The notes: a model not told the origin generated them from the letters alone. A stretch of DNA of 64,000 nt from a virus (IMGVR_UViG_3300027822_000001:28596-92595), one strand, 5' to 3'; positions 35,611 through 58,841 are shown, counted from the stretch's first letter. Made by a program: numbers and translations.

Positions 35611-36258
35611 TTAATTTACCGTTAATAATGATTCTCTAAACATTCTTAATATGCCTAGATTTTCGTCACTCAGAGGAAAAGTAGTTCCATAATAAAACTC
35701 CATATCTCTTTGCACATTATACTTTATCTTATAAACTTCATCAACGTAGGATTTACTAGGTTTATCCTCAATGTCCTGAATCCTTCTTGATTGCCTCTCC
35801 TTTTTCTTTTGTTTCTGTACCAACTCTACTGGAACTTTAACTGATGCATCTAAAATTGAAATAGAAGTATTTATTTGTTTTGGCTTAGTATTGCCACTTT
35901 TTAATTCTTCTATAAGATTAGTTAAATCAGTACTTAAGTTATCTTTTCGTAAAAAGAAACCAGTATAATCAAATACTACAAATATAAGGCTATCTAATTC
36001 TTTACTTACCTTAAAGATAAACTTACCCGTTAAATCTAATAATGTTTTTTTACTAGTTTCTTCGTAGGTAGCTTTTAAGGCTCTATTTCTTTTACGTTTA
36101 TATTTTTCAAAAGTATACTGAAGAATAGACCTTTCCTTGTTTTCAAGTTTAATAGCCTGCTCTCTCAGCCAGTACAATATACCTATATTTAATATCATTT
36201 CTGCTTCTTTTACTGAAGCTGTTTTGTACTTTTTATTTATTGAATTATATATTATCAT
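35611..36258 (-). CDS. hypothetical protein
   Basis: 215-aa ORF. Confidence 0.7.
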   Translation of the reverse strand: MIIYNSINKKYKTASVKEAEMILNIGILYWLREQAIKLENKERSILQYTFEKYKRKRNRALKATYEETSKKTLLDLTGKFIFKVSKELDSLIFVVFDYTGFFLRKDNLSTDLTNLIEELKSGNTKPKQINTSISILDASVKVPVELVQKQKKKERQSRRIQDIEDKPSKSYVDEVYKIKYNVQRDMEFYYGTTFPLSDENLGILRMFRESLLTVN

Positions 36259-36883
36259 CTTTAAAATTTTTATATTTGTTTAACCTTTTATTTGTTCTAA
36301 TTAATGAATACATATATGTTATTGGTGCTGTAAAGTATCCTTTTCTCTTCATAGTATGAAATACTTCTTTTGAAGTCTTAGCTTCTTTTAAGTGATATCT
36401 TCTAACTAATAAAGATAATAAATCATTTATACTCTCATCAAAAGAGTCATACTTTTTAAATGAACTTACAATTACCATTCTTTCTCCATTAACATATTCA
36501 GCTGTTTTGGTTACATGCCCTTTTCCTTTTATACCAAAAGCATTATTACTTTTAATAAATAAGGAAGATTTAAAAGGCATAGTTCCTTTTCGTGTACTTG
36601 AAGAGCTTTCAAACATTGCAATAGTTTCAACAACTTTAGCTACCTCTCTTTTAGTTAAAATGCTACCATTTATTATGGAATCATTTATACTAAAATAAAT
36701 AGCAGGAAAAGCTATTTTATCAATTTCTTCTAAATCTCTAAAATAAAGCTTTTCCGTCTTTAATCTTGCAACATCAGCATCTAAATCATATGGTCTTTCT
36801 ATAGGCATTTTAAATTCTATTGTTGCTTCTTGTGCTCTAACAGAACTAAGCAGCAGAAATAGAATGATTAGTAAAATCCTCAT
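36245..36883 (-). CDS. GH73 glucosaminidase/muramidase (FlgJ-like) with N-terminal signal peptide
   Basis: AMFES, NNAFGIKG, T.EY, FKKYDS..ESI, GYFT; signal MRILLIILFLLLSSVRA. Confidence 0.85.
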   Translation of the reverse strand: MRILLIILFLLLSSVRAQEATIEFKMPIERPYDLDADVARLKTEKLYFRDLEEIDKIAFPAIYFSINDSIINGSILTKREVAKVVETIAMFESSSSTRKGTMPFKSSLFIKSNNAFGIKGKGHVTKTAEYVNGERMVIVSSFKKYDSFDESINDLLSLLVRRYHLKEAKTSKEVFHTMKRKGYFTAPITYMYSLIRTNKRLNKYKNFKDDNI

Positions 36884-38762: not shown

Positions 38763-39398
38763 CTATTTAAAATCTTTATGCTTAATTTTTGTAACAACAC
38801 GTTCTCCAGACCTATTATAAAGTTCTATTTGAGGTTTCATTACCAATCCTTCTGCCATATAATCTTCATTGTCAGCTATAGTTGACTTAAAACCTTGCTT
38901 TACGAACTCTATAGCAGTTTTTAACTTCCAAATACCTATTATTGGTACAATAGAAATTTCTAATTTCTTTGCTATAACTTCTATAGCTTTACGTGTAAGC
39001 CACCATTTTCCTATTCTTATATCAAATAAGATAAAATTATTAGAATCAGGTAAATAATTTCCTCCTTTTTGTATTTTTTGTCCATATCCTTCTCCATAAA
39101 GACAAATATCAGCTTCTGTTTCAAATATATCTTCTAATTGTTTTTTACAAAAGAGTTTATTTAATTTATCTAATAAAAATGGTGGTATTTGAGTATTGTC
39201 TGACTTACCTCTTATAGAAAAGATTCCATTACTCAATATTATTCTTATATTTGTACCATCTATCTTTTCTGTACAAATCCAATTTATATCTTGCAATACT
39301 TCAAATTCTTTCTTTGACCATACTCCTTCTAAAAGAGTTCTAAAATTAGTCTTTGGGTCTCTCAAATAAACTGTTTGTATTTTATGATATTTATCCAT
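38763..39398 (-). CDS. RNA ligase (Rnl2-like nucleotidyltransferase domain)
   Basis: Motif I EKIDGTN, III YGE, IIIa FDI, IV EGLV, V KIK. Confidence 0.88.
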   Translation of the reverse strand: MDKYHKIQTVYLRDPKTNFRTLLEGVWSKKEFEVLQDINWICTEKIDGTNIRIILSNGIFSIRGKSDNTQIPPFLLDKLNKLFCKKQLEDIFETEADICLYGEGYGQKIQKGGNYLPDSNNFILFDIRIGKWWLTRKAIEVIAKKLEISIVPIIGIWKLKTAIEFVKQGFKSTIADNEDYMAEGLVMKPQIELYNRSGERVVTKIKHKDFK

Positions 39399-40114: not shown

Positions 40115-40417
40115 TTATAAGTTATACTCTTTACGTTTCCTATAAAGTGTCCTTTCAGAGGCACTCAATAAACTAGCAGCTTCTTTTAGTGTTCTTGTTA
40201 TAGACATTGCGTACTCTATTCTATATTTCTCAGAAGATAATAATTTACTCTCATGCTCTTCTAACGACTTTGAAAGATTCATAGTTTTTACATCAAACTG
40301 TACTTCAAATCTTAACTTTTCAAGTTCCTTTTTTACTTCTTGTAGTTTTTTAGTTGCTTCATGAATGACTTCTTCATTGAAATCAAGCCTTTGTAAGCAA
40401 TATTCTTTAACTTCCAT
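40115..40417 (-). CDS. Fis-type (HTH_8) DNA-binding protein
   Basis: C-terminal EAASLLSASERTLYRKRKEYNL. Confidence 0.75.
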   Translation of the reverse strand: MEVKEYCLQRLDFNEEVIHEATKKLQEVKKELEKLRFEVQFDVKTMNLSKSLEEHESKLLSSEKYRIEYAMSITRTLKEAASLLSASERTLYRKRKEYNL

Positions 40418-40595: not shown

Positions 40596-40865
40596 TTAAA
40601 AGAGTTCTTTCTCAAGCTCTTTGATAGCTTTTATACCATTTTTATAGCCTTCAATAAGTTCTATGACAGAAATTATCTTAGAAACTGATAGCACTTCCGC
40701 TGATTTTAACGCTTTTAAGCTGTGTTCTTCTTGACTTAAGGATAATTCTGTTTCCAATAAGTCTTTTTGTAACTGTAGTTGGTCTTGTTTTACTTGAAAT
40801 TTTACAGCCTCTTCTTGGTTGTTGCCCTGATTCATTAATAATTCTAATCTTTTCATTTTGTTCAT
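40596..40865 (-). CDS. helical hypothetical protein overlapping the upstream gene
   Basis: 89-aa coiled coil ending ELF, followed by a terminator. Confidence 0.7.
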   Translation of the reverse strand: MNKMKRLELLMNQGNNQEEAVKFQVKQDQLQLQKDLLETELSLSQEEHSLKALKSAEVLSVSKIISVIELIEGYKNGIKAIKELEKELF

Positions 40866-41595
40866 TTTTATATGTTAATAATTGTTTAAACTTTTCGAAA
40901 GTATAGTGCTTAGTAGTAACACTTTGTCTAGAAGTACATATTTCGAGACCATCAATCACTCCATAAACACTATTGCCAAGAATATAACCTTCCCAGCTGA
41001 TAAGATACTTAATATTGTTGTCTTTACATAATTGTTTATATTCTCGTATATTTTTACCATCAATTTCTGATACTAGAAAGTTTTCTTTATCAAAACTTAA
41101 AAAATCTTTAGTAACTTCAAGATGCTCAAGTCTATCATCAATTTTATATCCTAATTTTATTTCTTCCTCTGTGGCGTATTGTAAACTACATATACCATAT
41201 TTTGCTGCTCTATAAGCACCATAAGAGCTAAGATTCCAATCTACATATACCCAATTTCTTTCTAAAGCTTCATCTGTAATGGTACCTACTAATTTTTTAC
41301 CCTTATAGGTATCTTGATTTCCAAAATTCCAACTTCCTTCATTTCTTACTACTTTTGCTCCAACATCTTTAAACATTACTGGTTTGCCTGCTCTGTGTTT
41401 TCTAAGCCACTCATAAAATGGTTTGAAATTTCCTTGGTTTACTTCTAACCAAATATTATTTCCTTGCAGAGTTTCACTCCAACTAAGTGCCATTCCTAGT
41501 GAGCCATCCGGCTTTTTATAGGGCACTGATATACTTTTACCTAATTCATCAGTAATGTAATCTTGTATGTCTTGTGGTAAATCTTCTATTTTCAT
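40678..41595 (-). CDS. protein containing a MIB/HERC2-like domain
   Basis: aa ~78-141 GAKVVR...W.FGNQD...GTI...WVYVDW....YR...G...L. Confidence 0.7.
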   Translation of the reverse strand: MKIEDLPQDIQDYITDELGKSISVPYKKPDGSLGMALSWSETLQGNNIWLEVNQGNFKPFYEWLRKHRAGKPVMFKDVGAKVVRNEGSWNFGNQDTYKGKKLVGTITDEALERNWVYVDWNLSSYGAYRAAKYGICSLQYATEEEIKLGYKIDDRLEHLEVTKDFLSFDKENFLVSEIDGKNIREYKQLCKDNNIKYLISWEGYILGNSVYGVIDGLEICTSRQSVTTKHYTFEKFKQLLTYKNEQNEKIRIINESGQQPRRGCKISSKTRPTTVTKRLIGNRIILKSRRTQLKSVKISGSAISF

Positions 41596-42035
41596 AACTT
41601 ATTTTGTATTACTTTAATAATTTTAATATCTTTTATTATGTTACCAGCAAATATTTCTGCAGCTCCATAATATCCGGTGTAAATTTCTCCAGTTAATGTA
41701 ACTTTTACAATTGCTATATTATAAGTATCATTTGGAGTGAAGCCACTTAGTCTTAGCACCCAATGCATTTCTCTTTTAGTCCTAAATATTCCTGTTAATC
41801 CATTAAAATATTTATTATATATTTTATAGATTTTCCAAGTTGGTGCTGCCCTTACATTAGCCCAAGGGTCTTTTACTATAGTTGTACAAATAGTAGGGGC
41901 TTCTTTTATCTTTTCGTTTAAAATATATTTTTGTCCTGTAAAAGTAGAATAAAACTCTCCTGTTTTAATATCAACAGCTATTATTTTGTACCCTTTTACT
42001 TCTTTTCTTCTTGTTTGTCCTGTTATTTCACACAT
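41592..42035 (-). CDS. hypothetical protein
   Basis: 147 aa; GYK...FYS...Y pattern common in phage proteins. Confidence 0.7.
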   Translation of the reverse strand: MCEITGQTRRKEVKGYKIIAVDIKTGEFYSTFTGQKYILNEKIKEAPTICTTIVKDPWANVRAAPTWKIYKIYNKYFNGLTGIFRTKREMHWVLRLSGFTPNDTYNIAIVKVTLTGEIYTGYYGAAEIFAGNIIKDIKIIKVIQNKL

Positions 42036-57380: not shown

Positions 57381-58841
57381 ATGAGTAACGTAAATTTTAG
57401 AACAGACGGAAAATTATTTTCTCCTGCACCTGATTGGACTGGGTATACAGACAAACGCCATTTAGCAACTATTAGACAAATTGCACCTAAATATGGTTCA
57501 GATATTTTAACTTATATTGGTTCTGTTAATAGTTCTGGTATGGCATACGAAGAATATTTGAGAATGGTTACTAAAGTTAACTATAAAGACACAGATGACC
57601 CTATCAATTATATGGTTTATGGAGAAGGTAGACAATTTGCACGATTAATCAAAGTAATTTCAGATGATGCAAATAGAATAGGATACAACAAAGCTCACTT
57701 TACGATGGTATTTGATGCTCCATTATTTAGTGAAGTACATATTATCGTAGGAAACTCTGATAGATATCGAGTTCGTATTGAGGATGATGGAAGATTAGCT
57801 TATGGTGGTCACGCTTATGATTGTACAGTATTTGGTCCAAATAATGCATTTGTTCCAGCAACAGAAATGTTAGCAGGTTCAACATGGACTAAAGAAGGAG
57901 CTCCAACTCCCATGTATAACTCAGATAAAGGTGCTAAAACTAGTTATACTAGTCCGTACGCAATTACTTATACTTGGTCTAGTGTCTCTGTAGAAGATGA
58001 AGTTCCTGGAAACTTAAAACATCGTCCAGTAGCATTTGCTTGGTTAGATGAAAATGGAAACAAATTAACTACTTGGGAGTTATACCGAACATGGTCTAAT
58101 GATGTTGAATTTAGATTACTTAAAAATAAAACATTAGTCTGGGGTCGTTCTAATATGAATGAAGCTGGAGGATATGATGATGTTGATAATCGTTCAGGTA
58201 TTGAAATCGTTGAAGGAGCAGGTTCTATGGAACAAATAGAACGAGGTAATGTTGTATATTATAATACTTTTGATATTGATGAGTTTGGAGAACATCTTTT
58301 AAAATTAAGAGTAGGTAAAAACCAATCAGATAAGATGCATTATGTTGTATCTACTGGTACTTATGGTTTGATTCAAGCACATAATTCTATTGCAGAAAAA
58401 GCTGCTGCTTGGGAAAAAATTGACAATAAATCAATCTTTGGCTCTGCTATGGATATGGGGTTTGGTAATCGTTTTACACGCTATCTACATCCGGGTGGTT
58501 TCTACATCGACTTTAGATTAGAACCCTTATTTGATGACCAATATAGAACTCCAATTGACCATCCTGATGGAGGAAAAGCAAGAAGTTATGAATATCATGT
58601 AACAGACTTAGGAGATACGCAAGGTGAAGCTTCTGTTGAACTTAACTATGTTAATACAATGGCTGATAATTTAGTTGTTGTTGAAGGTATGCGTAGTCCT
58701 TACTCTCCTACTGGAGCTAAAGTAACATATAAAGCTACATCAACAAAAGATAGTTGGGCAGAAAGACGTATGAGTCACTTTATGTTAGTGTTAAAAAATC
58801 CTAGAAATAGCTTAATTTACAGACCTAATATTTTATATTAA
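57381..58841 (+). CDS. Major capsid protein (crAss-like)
   Basis: 486 aa in the canonical position; LVWGRSN...GAG..EQI, TG.YG...; C-terminus typical of crAss MCPs. Confidence 0.85.
   Translation: MSNVNFRTDGKLFSPAPDWTGYTDKRHLATIRQIAPKYGSDILTYIGSVNSSGMAYEEYLRMVTKVNYKDTDDPINYMVYGEGRQFARLIKVISDDANRIGYNKAHFTMVFDAPLFSEVHIIVGNSDRYRVRIEDDGRLAYGGHAYDCTVFGPNNAFVPATEMLAGSTWTKEGAPTPMYNSDKGAKTSYTSPYAITYTWSSVSVEDEVPGNLKHRPVAFAWLDENGNKLTTWELYRTWSNDVEFRLLKNKTLVWGRSNMNEAGGYDDVDNRSGIEIVEGAGSMEQIERGNVVYYNTFDIDEFGEHLLKLRVGKNQSDKMHYVVSTGTYGLIQAHNSIAEKAAAWEKIDNKSIFGSAMDMGFGNRFTRYLHPGGFYIDFRLEPLFDDQYRTPIDHPDGGKARSYEYHVTDLGDTQGEASVELNYVNTMADNLVVVEGMRSPYSPTGAKVTYKATSTKDSWAERRMSHFMLVLKNPRNSLIYRPNILY

What the first reader, a model, noticed from the sequence alone, without database searches (positions are those of the whole stretch)
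41173..41364. Eukaryote-type MIB/HERC2 domain in a bacteriophage early protein
Seen: VGAKVVRNEGSWNFGNQDTYKGKKLVGTITDEALERNWVYVDWNLSSYGAYRAAKYGICSL. This follows the MIB/HERC2 consensus as I recall it: G-x-RVVRG-x-DW-x-W-x2-QDG...GTV...WV-x-V-x-W-x5-YR-x-G-x2-G-x2-DL. Established: this SH3-like peptide-recognition module is characteristic of Mind bomb and HERC2 ubiquitin ligases. Inference: a phage adaptor that binds a host peptide motif, relevant to the origin of the domain and to bacterial ubiquitin-like defence.
Basis: partly seen in the sequence, partly recalled or inferred. Interest (0 to 1): 0.7.

Follow-up and report, generated by a model that had tools for sequence, protein, structure and literature searches.

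The report
Phage-type MIB/HERC2 domain in crAss-like phage
A 305-residue protein of a complete crAss-like phage carries a divergent copy of the small MIB/HERC2 binding domain known from animal ubiquitin ligases; the copy belongs to a phage-borne branch of that domain, sits in a protein with no ligase part, and the gene's basic tail is encoded in overlap with a conserved downstream gene.

Summary
The quoted peptide is residues 78-141 of a 305-aa minus-strand ORF (40678-41595) in a 92.6-kb crAss-like phage.

**Domain identity.** Pfam MIB_HERC2 aligns end to end but scores below its cut-off (26.3 against 33.5 bits, E 7e-6). Three other lines support homology:
- Profiles built without this sequence hit it: phage-only E 1e-11, eukaryote-only E 5e-9.
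- phmmer finds bona fide MIB proteins.
- The four best PDB matches of an AlphaFold model are HECTD1 and MIB1 MIB domains.

**"Eukaryote-type" is only partly right.** At least 10 other IMG/VR viral contigs encode MIB_HERC2. Six phage or metagenome proteins score above the Pfam cut-off, two of them shown to lie on viral contigs. On a tree the viral domains separate from all eukaryotic ones. None of 400 sampled bacterial genomes has the domain.

**No ubiquitin link.** There is no RING, HECT or other ubiquitin part. The link to ubiquitin-like defence, the "early" timing and the binding of a host peptide are all untested.

**Unexpected extra.** The last 62 residues form a basic tail encoded in 188 nt that overlap a conserved about 90-aa coiled-coil gene in the +1 frame. 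Five loci on five viral contigs share this geometry, and in the four tested neither frame is open by chance (P at most 5e-3).

Moderately interesting: a new variant of a known domain.

The parts
40678..41595 (-). Whole gene 'T': 305-aa modular protein with a TAA stop at 40678-40680. Its ATG overlaps the TGA of the upstream 147-aa ORF (ATGA).
   Evidence: ORF list, sequence. The identical protein P0002 is in the public collection on 2 contigs.
41371..41595 (-). N-module, aa 1-75 (DLPxxIQ ... W..T.EG..IW.EVN.GNF.PFY). It also occurs as stand-alone small proteins and as 2-3 tandem copies elsewhere.
   Evidence: phmmer hits P0012, P0018, P0019, P0022, P0023, P0025, P0028. In the AF2 model pLDDT is about 75-86 for aa 1-40 and falls to about 52-62 for aa 41-70. 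Fold matches are noise-level only, winged-helix-like at Z 3.4 or less.
41170..41364 (-). Divergent MIB/HERC2 SH3-like domain, aa 78-142. This is the finding itself.
40867..41100 (-). C-module, aa 166-243: a small alpha/beta unit (NFxV ... Y..LC...I ... W.G ... YG) repeated 1-3 times in relatives.
   Evidence: phmmer hits P0003-P0009 and others. AF2 pLDDT is about 94, with order beta-alpha-beta-beta-beta-alpha. No significant fold match.
40681..40866 (-). Basic C-terminal tail, aa 244-305 (15 K/R against 3 D/E). It is predicted disordered and conserved to the last residue in at least 15 cluster representatives.
   Evidence: Alignments. A tail-only HMM built without the window hits it at E 4.8e-21. 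pLDDT is about 50.
40596..40865 (-). Gene 'C': 89-aa coiled-coil ORF in the +1 frame of T. Its first 62 codons (40678-40865, 188 nt) overlap the tail of T.
   Evidence: An HMM of the C ORFs of three other phage loci hits it at E 4.9e-7, with the next ORF at 0.22. An 89-cluster family of proteins, most about 93-116 aa, exists.
41592..42035 (-). Upstream 147-aa ORF of unknown function, coupled to T by a 4-nt overlap.
   Evidence: No Pfam or PHROG match.
40115..40417 (-). Downstream 100-aa ORF with a C-terminal Fis-type HTH.
   Evidence: Pfam HTH_8 at 22.0 bits, exactly at the cut-off.

Best explanation
ORF 40678-41595(-) encodes a non-enzymatic protein built from four shuffled modules. It lies on the non-structural arm of a complete crAss-like phage.

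**Shown.**
- Residues 78-142 form a divergent MIB/HERC2-type SH3-like beta-barrel. It belongs to a phage-borne subgroup of that domain, and other phages combine this subgroup with quite different partners.
- The N-module and the alpha/beta C-module are also mobile units within crAss-like phage proteins.
- The last 62 residues are a basic, probably disordered tail. Its coding DNA is also the first two thirds of a conserved downstream coiled-coil gene read in the +1 frame. Both frames are kept open in five loci on five viral contigs.

**Inferred.**
- By analogy with the MZM region of MIB1, which docks a short linear motif of Notch ligands, the barrel probably serves as a protein- or peptide-docking module that tethers one partner, host or phage.
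- The other modules and the basic tail would supply further contacts, possibly with nucleic acid.
- Translation of the tail across the start of the downstream gene may couple or limit that gene's expression.
- Nothing links the protein to ubiquitin chemistry.

**Odds.** Domain homology about 0.85-0.9. Phage-specific subgroup about 0.7. Genuine dual coding about 0.75. Peptide-docking adaptor role about 0.35-0.4.
For: **Domain.**
- Pfam gives a full-length alignment at E 7e-6.
- There is one hit in the whole genome.
- phmmer reaches Pfam-positive MIB proteins.
- Eleven invariant signature positions are shared with three MIB proteins: V, R, W, QD, W-x-x-V-x-W, YR and G.
- Independent profiles give E 9.6e-12 and 5e-9.
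- The AF2 model of aa 71-155 has pLDDT 72 and pTM 0.67, with six strands.
- The four best Foldseek PDB matches are HECTD1 Mib-herc2 (2dk3 at E 8.7e-4 and TM 0.57; 3dkm) and MIB1 MZM (4xi6, 4xi7), ahead of generic SH3 domains.

**Phage subgroup.**
- A scan of IMG/VR returned 14 loci on 10 viral contigs.
- P0044 (63.7 bits) lies in a 112-kb crAss-like genome, and the L002 ORF scores 51 bits.
- Architectures include MIB plus an AAA-type ATPase, tandem MIB genes and a 756-aa protein.
- On the tree, the 11 viral rows are one side of a branch (SH-aLRT 86) against all eukaryotic rows.
- PF06701 was found in 0 of 400 sampled genomes of one bacterial phylum and 0 of 14 control genomes.

**Overlap.**
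- The +1 geometry, with 155-221 nt of overlap, is the same in the window, L018, L020, L021 and L035.
- P(tail frame open | C protein fixed) is at most 2.5e-4, and P(C open | tail fixed) is at most 5.4e-3, in each of the four loci tested.
- Elsewhere in the window, the longest open run in the frame the tail occupies relative to C is 49 codons.
- The C family is conserved, and so is the tail family.

**Function of the eukaryotic domain.** The MZM region of MIB1 binds the N-box peptide of JAG1 and Delta (PMC11887331).
Against: - The Pfam score is below the gathering cut-off.
- The domain departs from the consensus at the RGxDW motif (here RNEGSW, with one extra residue), at YRxG (here YRAA) and at the final DL (here SL). 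Binding properties may therefore differ.
- Its branch on the tree is very long (2.04), so its exact place is unsure.
- The domain model has only medium confidence. In the full-length model the MIB region was not folded (pLDDT 33-43), probably because that alignment misplaced the MIB homologues.
- No partner, expression time or translation product has been observed.
- Sampling of cellular genomes covered one phylum plus narrow pattern scans, and not Bacteroidota, the usual crAss hosts.
- The tails of the P0044 and L021 groups are not detectably similar to the window's tail.
Confidence: 0.62

Rival explanations
1. The stretch is a generic SH3-like barrel, or a chance match, and not a homologue of MIB/HERC2.
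For: - The Pfam score of 26.3 bits is under the 33.5-bit cut-off.
- phmmer against PDB gives only E 0.13 to HECTD1.
- Foldseek E-values are modest, at 8.7e-4 or weaker, and many SH3 domains follow in the list.
Against: - The alignment covers the whole model.
- Two independent profiles give E 1e-11 and 5e-9, against 0.026 or worse for every other ORF.
- phmmer hits in a 1.8-billion-protein library are themselves Pfam-positive MIB proteins.
- The four top structural matches are all MIB/HERC2 domains.
Confidence: 0.07
2. The domain was captured recently from a eukaryote, which would make it a truly 'eukaryote-type' horizontal transfer.
For: - The family was defined in animal E3 ligases.
- A eukaryote-only profile still recognises the stretch.
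- One bacterial MAG carries eukaryote-like MIB repeats, so transfers or contamination do occur.
Against: - Viral domains fall outside the subtree that holds every eukaryotic row.
- The phage-only profile scores higher than the eukaryotic one, 39.7 against 30.8 bits.
- The nearest sequences are crAss-type proteins.
- The domain occurs in several unrelated phage architectures and GC contexts, 0.28-0.47.
- No RING, HECT, ZZ or ankyrin partner domains are present.
Confidence: 0.08
3. The protein binds nucleic acid rather than a peptide. The SH3-like barrel and the strongly basic tail would contact DNA or RNA, for example during replication or transcription of the phage.
For: - The tail has 15 K/R in 62 residues (sequence).
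- The gene lies on the arm that holds replication genes.
- In another phage, the MIB gene sits between PolA and a primase-like gene.
- The N-module shows faint winged-helix-like matches.
- From general knowledge, many SH3-like and Tudor/KOW barrels bind nucleic acids.
Against: - The only characterised MIB/HERC2 domains bind peptides (PMC11887331).
- The fold matches for the N-module are at noise level (Z 3.4 or less).
- The basic composition of the tail may simply follow from overprinting on a Glu/Lys/Leu-rich frame.
Confidence: 0.2
4. The protein takes part in, or counteracts, a bacterial ubiquitin-like conjugation defence.
For: The only support is the association of the domain with E3 ligases in eukaryotes.
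Against: - Pfam finds no E1, E2, E3, ubiquitin-like or deubiquitinase match in the protein or its four nearest neighbours.
- Other phage MIB proteins show no such partner in their ORF translations, which were read by eye; five of them gave only MIB_HERC2 in Pfam.
Confidence: 0.04
5. The 62-residue tail is not made. On this view the long ORF is an annotation artefact of a missing stop, and only the downstream coiled-coil gene is real.
For: - The C frame looks like an ordinary helical protein and has a large family.
- Tails of distant groups are not alignable.
- The tail is predicted disordered.
Against: - With the C protein held fixed, the tail frame stays open in at most 2.5e-4 of synonymous resamplings in each of four loci.
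- No other gene in the window has so long an open run in the frame the tail occupies relative to C: the maximum is 49 codons, against 62 here.
- The tail is conserved up to its last residue in at least 15 cluster representatives that share under 50% identity.
Confidence: 0.12

Closest known systems
MIB/HERC2 domains of animal E3 ligases (Pfam PF06701; HECTD1 2DK3/3DKM; MIB1 MZM 4XI6/4XI7)
   Same: - Same roughly 65-residue SH3-like barrel.
- Shared signature positions: G-x-x-V-x-R, W, QD, G-x-I/V, W-V-x-V-x-W and YR.
- Best structural matches.
   Different: - No RING, HECT, ZZ, REP or ankyrin parts.
- Single copy.
- The RGxDW, YRxG and DL motifs are altered.
- The score is below the Pfam cut-off.
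- The gene is viral, and the domain sits on a different branch of the tree.
MIB_HERC2 proteins of other uncultivated phages (P0044/P0040/P0053/P0064 of crAss-like genomes; ORFs in L002/L014, L013, L021-L025)
   Same: - Phage-type signature: VVRG[KR]DW ... YDLY[YF].
- Placement among non-structural genes.
- In the P0044, L020 and L021 proteins, also a basic tail overlapping the same downstream gene family in the +1 frame.
   Different: - Those domains score well above the Pfam cut-off (39-84 bits), whereas the window's copy is the most divergent.
- The other modules differ: here an N-module and an alpha/beta C-module, elsewhere a second SH3-like unit, an AAA-type ATPase or long repeats.
The tail-bearing family of crAss-like phage proteins (P0003-P0009, P0011, P0013, P0015, P0017, P0020, P0021, P0024, P0026, P0027)
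   Same: Same alpha/beta C-module and the same C-terminal tail (NEK.R.I ... G..ISS..RQ ... SR.IGN ... KIS...IS) ending at the same residue.
   Different: In place of the MIB domain they carry an unrelated-looking 'GTIVVRT ... YY ... RLAT.EEI' unit. A profile-profile comparison with MIB is not significant.
Overprinted phage gene pairs such as lambda Rz/Rz1 (from general knowledge)
   Same: Two products are read from one DNA stretch in frames offset by +1 on the same strand.
   Different: Here the overlap is partial: the 3' end of one gene lies over the 5' two thirds of the next. The overlapped part of the upstream gene is a basic disordered tail. No functional link between the two products is known.

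Membership tests
MIB/HERC2 domain (Pfam PF06701) | Score at or above the curated Pfam gathering cut-off (33.5 bits) | tested here: not met
   The score is 26.3 bits by hmmscan and 29.6 bits in the six-frame search. This is an operational cut-off, so I file the stretch as a divergent homologue and not as a threshold-passing Pfam member.
MIB/HERC2 domain (Pfam PF06701) | Alignment over the whole domain model with statistically significant similarity to bona fide members | tested here: met
   - Model positions 1-65 of 66 are covered.
- phmmer gives E 4.7e-7 to 1.1e-4 to P0010, P0014 and P0016; P0010 and P0016 are Pfam-positive.
- Profiles built without the query give E 9.6e-12 (phage) and 5e-9 (eukaryote).
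MIB/HERC2 domain (Pfam PF06701) | Conserved signature residues (G.RV.RG.DW.W..QDG ... G.V ... W..V.W ... YR.G ... DL) | tested here: inconclusive
   - Kept: V, R, W, QD, G-T-I, W-V-Y-V-D-W, YR and a late G.
- Changed: RG.DW to RNEGSW with one inserted residue, YR.G to YRAA, and DL to SL.
MIB/HERC2 domain (Pfam PF06701) | SH3-like beta-barrel fold superposable on solved MIB/HERC2 domains | tested here: met
   The AF2 model has pLDDT 72. Foldseek ranks 2dk3, 3dkm, 4xi6 and 4xi7 first, with TM 0.48-0.58 and rmsd 3.2-3.9 over 59-69 columns. Both model and match are of medium confidence.
MIB1/HERC2/HECTD1-type E3 ubiquitin ligases | A RING or HECT catalytic domain in the same protein | tested here: not met
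   Pfam finds no such domain at E up to 1 in the 305-aa protein.
MIB1/HERC2/HECTD1-type E3 ubiquitin ligases | Binding of a short linear peptide motif by the MIB barrel | not testable with these tools
   This is known for the MIB1 MZM region with the N-box of JAG1 and Delta (PMC11887331). No partner is known here.
Overprinted (dual-coding) gene pair | Both frames open over the overlap far beyond chance, in several lineages | tested here: met
   Five loci share the +1 geometry and 155-221 nt of overlap. Resampling gives P at most 2.5e-4 and at most 5.4e-3 in each of the four loci tested.
Overprinted (dual-coding) gene pair | Each frame conserved as protein | tested here: met
   - C frame: HMM E 4.9e-7, 34% identity without gaps to the L021 C ORF, and 89 clusters.
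- Tail frame: HMM E 4.8e-21 within its family, but no detectable similarity between distant tail groups.
Overprinted (dual-coding) gene pair | Both products actually translated | not testable with these tools
Crassvirales (crAss-like phages), for the replicon | crAss-type major capsid protein, a roughly 90-100-kb genome and giant virion RNAP-like ORFs | tested here: met
   - Crass_capsid PF23898 scores 226 bits at 57381-58841.
- The record is 92,595 bp with direct terminal repeats.
- ORFs of 2965 and 1251 aa are present.

The most novel reading that the evidence does not exclude
MIB/HERC2 is not an animal invention. It is one branch of a domain that has long circulated in tailed phages, crAss-like and others, while being nearly absent from bacterial chromosomes, so phages are a candidate source or reservoir of the eukaryotic ligase module. 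In crAss-like phages the domain is one of several interchangeable heads mounted on a conserved cassette. In that cassette a basic tail is overprinted on the start of a small coiled-coil gene, and both products are made and work together.
Probability: 0.3. Interest if true: 0.65.

Novelty: new variant of a known kind. Interest (0 to 1): 0.5.

Why it matters
**The domain.** MIB/HERC2 is treated in the literature as a module of eukaryotic E3 ligases. I found no paper that mentions it in phages. Here it proves to be a recurrent, separately evolving module of uncultivated phages, used without any ligase part. That gives a simple system for asking what the barrel recognises, and it bears on where the eukaryotic domain came from.

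**The overlap.** The conserved 155-221-nt dual-coding overlap between the tail and the downstream gene is a clean, testable case of overprinting in a major group of gut phages. It also shows that routine gene calling truncates one partner: P0164, a 58-aa hit of the C-family profile, is recorded on contigs of up to 112,552 bases, where the full C ORF is 116 aa.

Tried and rejected
**Searches that found nothing**
- tblastn of the protein and of P0044 against 50,697 GenBank phage records gave no match.
- The scan of viral contigs with the tail alignment A4 found nothing, as did the scan with P0167.
- Literature searches for MIB/HERC2 in phages or bacteria, and for overlapping genes in crAss-like phages, found nothing relevant.

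- The genome tools could not be centred on Bacteroidota.

**Weak similarities set aside**
- Pairwise BLASTP between the coiled-coil ORFs and between distant tails was not significant. For the C frame this was superseded by the HMM result.
- Profile-profile comparison of the 'GTIVVRT' unit with MIB was not significant (probability 0.13), so I make no claim that it is a MIB derivative.
- The N-terminal similarity to the end of the HK853 ATPase domain (E 0.0046 over 65 residues) covers only a fragment of that fold. The OLD-like TOPRIM hit (E 0.017 over 34 residues) is similarly thin. I treat both as chance.

**Structure searches and complex prediction**
- Fold searches with the full-length model gave nothing above noise for the N- and C-modules (BFVD, VIA wide, Foldseek PDB). 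The protein atlas gave nothing either.
- Complex prediction of the tail with the C protein returned no verdict. This is no evidence either way.

**Other**
- No tRNA genes were found in the window.

Full report
**1. What is at the coordinates**

The quoted peptide is real but lies on the minus strand. The reverse complement of 41173-41364 translates to it exactly. It forms residues 78-141 of a 305-aa ORF, 40678..41595(-). The ATG of that ORF overlaps the stop of the preceding 147-aa ORF (ATGA).

The window is part of a 92,595-bp IMG/VR virus record with direct terminal repeats. Several features mark it as a crAss-like phage:
- a crAss-type major capsid protein (PF23898, 226 bits), a family A DNA polymerase and a ribonucleotide reductase;
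- ORFs of 2965 and 1251 aa;
- about 29% G+C.

The gene sits in the long minus-strand block (13-47.7 kb). That block holds replication genes, an RNA ligase, an endolysin-like gene and many small unknown ORFs. "Early" is therefore a guess from position and not a result.

**2. Is it a MIB/HERC2 domain?**

*Pfam.* MIB_HERC2 aligns over model positions 1-65 of 66 at E 7e-6. The 26.3 bits are under the 33.5-bit gathering cut-off. A six-frame search of the whole phage finds this place only (29.6 bits).

*Four further tests all point the same way.*
- phmmer of the whole protein against 1.8 billion representatives returns, for residues 71-150, proteins with clear MIB repeats: P0010 at 4.7e-7, P0014 (RING plus two MIB) at 3e-5 and P0016 at 1.1e-4. 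P0010 and P0016 score 84 and 70 bits in Pfam.
- An alignment with these three shows eleven invariant signature positions.
- HMMs built without the window sequence recognise this ORF among 413 window ORFs. The profile from phage domains gives E 9.6e-12 and the one from eukaryotic domains only gives E 5e-9. The next ORF is at 0.026 and 0.38 respectively.
- An AlphaFold2 model of residues 71-155 (pLDDT 72, pTM 0.67, six strands) has as its four best PDB matches the HECTD1 Mib-herc2 domain (2dk3 at E 8.7e-4 and TM 0.57; 3dkm) and the MIB1 MZM region (4xi6, 4xi7). Generic SH3 domains follow.

*Conclusion.* I take it as a true but divergent homologue. The RGxDW motif reads RNEGSW with an extra residue, YRxG reads YRAA, and the closing DL reads SL. 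These changes explain the sub-threshold score and mean that its binding properties cannot simply be copied from MIB1.

**3. Is it "eukaryote-type"?**

Only in name.
- *It recurs in phages.* A profile search of 5.8 billion proteins gave 67 MIB_HERC2 proteins, many from metagenomes. A scan of IMG/VR gave 14 loci on 10 viral contigs of 10-123 kb.
- *Other crAss-like phages have it.* P0044 (63.7 bits in Pfam) lies in a 112-kb genome and an 84-kb genome that both carry the crAss capsid.
- *So does a non-crAss contig.* There the MIB ORF scores 51 bits and sits next to PolA.
- *Architectures vary.* They include MIB alone, tandem MIB genes, MIB plus an AAA-type ATPase, MIB inside a 756-aa protein, and MIB plus a second SH3-like unit.
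- *The signature is distinct.* Phage domains share VVRG[KR]DW ... YDLY[YF], against RGPDW.W ... YRWG ... DL in eukaryotes.
- *The tree separates them.* In a tree of 113 domains, poorly resolved because only 62 columns were kept, the 11 rows from IMG/VR lie on one side of a branch (SH-aLRT 86) from all eukaryote-named and eukaryote-architecture rows. The window's row has a very long branch. Its nearest sequence is P0040 at 44% identity, a protein highly similar to the crAss-like phage protein P0044.
- *Cellular prokaryotes rarely have it.* PF06701 was found in 0 of 400 sampled genomes of one phylum and in 0 of 14 controls. Two narrow pattern scans of 185,579 species found only one MAG, whose repeats look eukaryotic, and one weak hit.
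- *Limit of the sampling.* Bacteroidota could not be sampled, so "rare in bacteria" holds only for what was searched.
- *Literature.* I found no paper that reports the domain in phages.

**4. The rest of the protein**

phmmer shows three further units, each with its own set of relatives.
- *N-module (aa 1-75).* It occurs alone or in tandem in other proteins.
- *Alpha/beta C-module (aa 166-243).* It is repeated one to three times in relatives and modelled with pLDDT about 94.
- *C-terminal tail (aa 244-305).* It is conserved to its last residue in at least 15 cluster representatives.

No known family or fold could be assigned to the first two. No catalytic domain was found in the protein. No ubiquitin-system domain was found in it or in its four nearest neighbours.

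**5. An overlap that was not in the finding**

The tail is encoded by 40681-40866. An 89-aa ORF (40596..40865, here called C) starts inside this stretch in the +1 frame and overlaps it by 188 nt.

*C is a real gene family.*
- An HMM of the corresponding ORFs in three other phage loci hits it at E 4.9e-7, with the next ORF at 0.22.
- It aligns without internal gaps at 34% identity to the L021 ORF.
- A profile search finds 89 clusters, most of about 93-116 aa.

*The tail is also real.*
- A tail-only HMM built without the window scores E 4.8e-21.
- The tail frame is at offset 2 relative to C. At that offset the longest open run in any other gene of the window is 49 codons, against 62 here.

*The arrangement is conserved.* The same geometry, C at +1 with 155-221 nt of overlap, recurs in L018, L020, L021 and L035. 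These are other viral contigs, whose upstream genes carry different head domains.

*Neither frame is open by chance.* With either protein held fixed and its codons redrawn from the window's codon usage (applied to all four loci), the other frame stays open rarely. The fraction is at most 2.5e-4 for the tail and at most 5.4e-3 for C, in each of the four loci tested.

*C looks like the older reading.* C is alignable across all groups, whereas distant tails are not. This fits C as the older frame and the tail as an overprinted extension. That polarity is an inference.

*Gene callers cut one partner.* P0164, a 58-aa hit of the C-family profile, is recorded on contigs of up to 112,552 bases, where the full C ORF is 116 aa.

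**6. How it most likely works**

*Shown.* The protein is a modular, non-enzymatic product of the non-structural arm. It has a MIB/HERC2-type barrel of a phage subgroup, and a dual-coded tail/C cassette.

*Inferred.*
- The barrel docks a short segment of a partner protein, as the MZM region of MIB1 docks the N-box of JAG1 and Delta (PMC11887331).
- The other modules and the basic tail add contacts, perhaps to nucleic acid.
- Ribosomes reading the tail pass over the start of C and may tune its expression.

I put the adaptor role at about 0.35-0.4 and a nucleic-acid-binding role at about 0.2. A role in ubiquitin-like conjugation has no support (about 0.04).

**7. Verdict**

This is a new variant of a known domain family, with a conserved overprinted tail as a bonus. 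Interest is moderate (0.5).

Noticed in passing
window 40596-40866 (-); also L018 4461-4681, L020 5139-5338, L021 4692-4852, L035 2462-2616: A conserved dual-coding overlap. The basic tail of the upstream gene and the first 50-70 codons of a small coiled-coil gene are read from the same DNA in frames offset by +1. In the four loci tested by resampling, neither frame is open by chance.
   Followed up: yes
L022 3974-5260: A viral contig encodes a 428-aa protein with an N-terminal MIB_HERC2 domain fused to a P-loop AAA-type ATPase (GPTGSGKST motif). This suggests that the barrel can act as a targeting head for an ATPase.
   Followed up: no
L013 3947-4850: Two tandem paralogous MIB_HERC2 genes (143 and 164 aa) in a 30-kb viral contig with 42% G+C.
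   Followed up: no
L027/L028 (G004, MAG labelled uncultured Enterobacterales): Open frames of about 810 aa with up to three eukaryote-like MIB_HERC2 repeats (68-82 bits). On the tree these repeats cluster with MIB1-like eukaryotic domains. The cause could be contamination of the MAG or a transfer from a eukaryote.
   Followed up: partly
window 41371-41595 (-), aa 7-71: Weak similarity (E 0.0046) of the N-module to the last 65 residues of the ATPase domain of histidine kinase HK853. It covers only a fragment of that fold and is probably chance.
   Followed up: partly
window 40115-40417 (-): A 100-aa ORF just downstream with a C-terminal Fis-type HTH, exactly at the Pfam cut-off (22.0 bits), and a weak excisionase-regulator PHROG match.
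   Followed up: no
L006 6461-6811 and protein P0164: In the 112-kb crAss-like genome, the full coiled-coil ORF is 116 aa. The C-family profile search returns a 58-aa protein, P0164, recorded on contigs of up to 112,552 bases. This is likely a truncated gene call that avoids the overlap; its sequence and position were not checked.
   Followed up: partly
window 36245-36883 (-) and 38763-39398 (-): An endolysin-like gene and an RNA ligase gene lie on the same strand block as the supposed early genes, so the block is not purely early.
   Followed up: no
window 1-64000: ARAGORN finds no tRNA or tmRNA gene in the window.
   Followed up: yes
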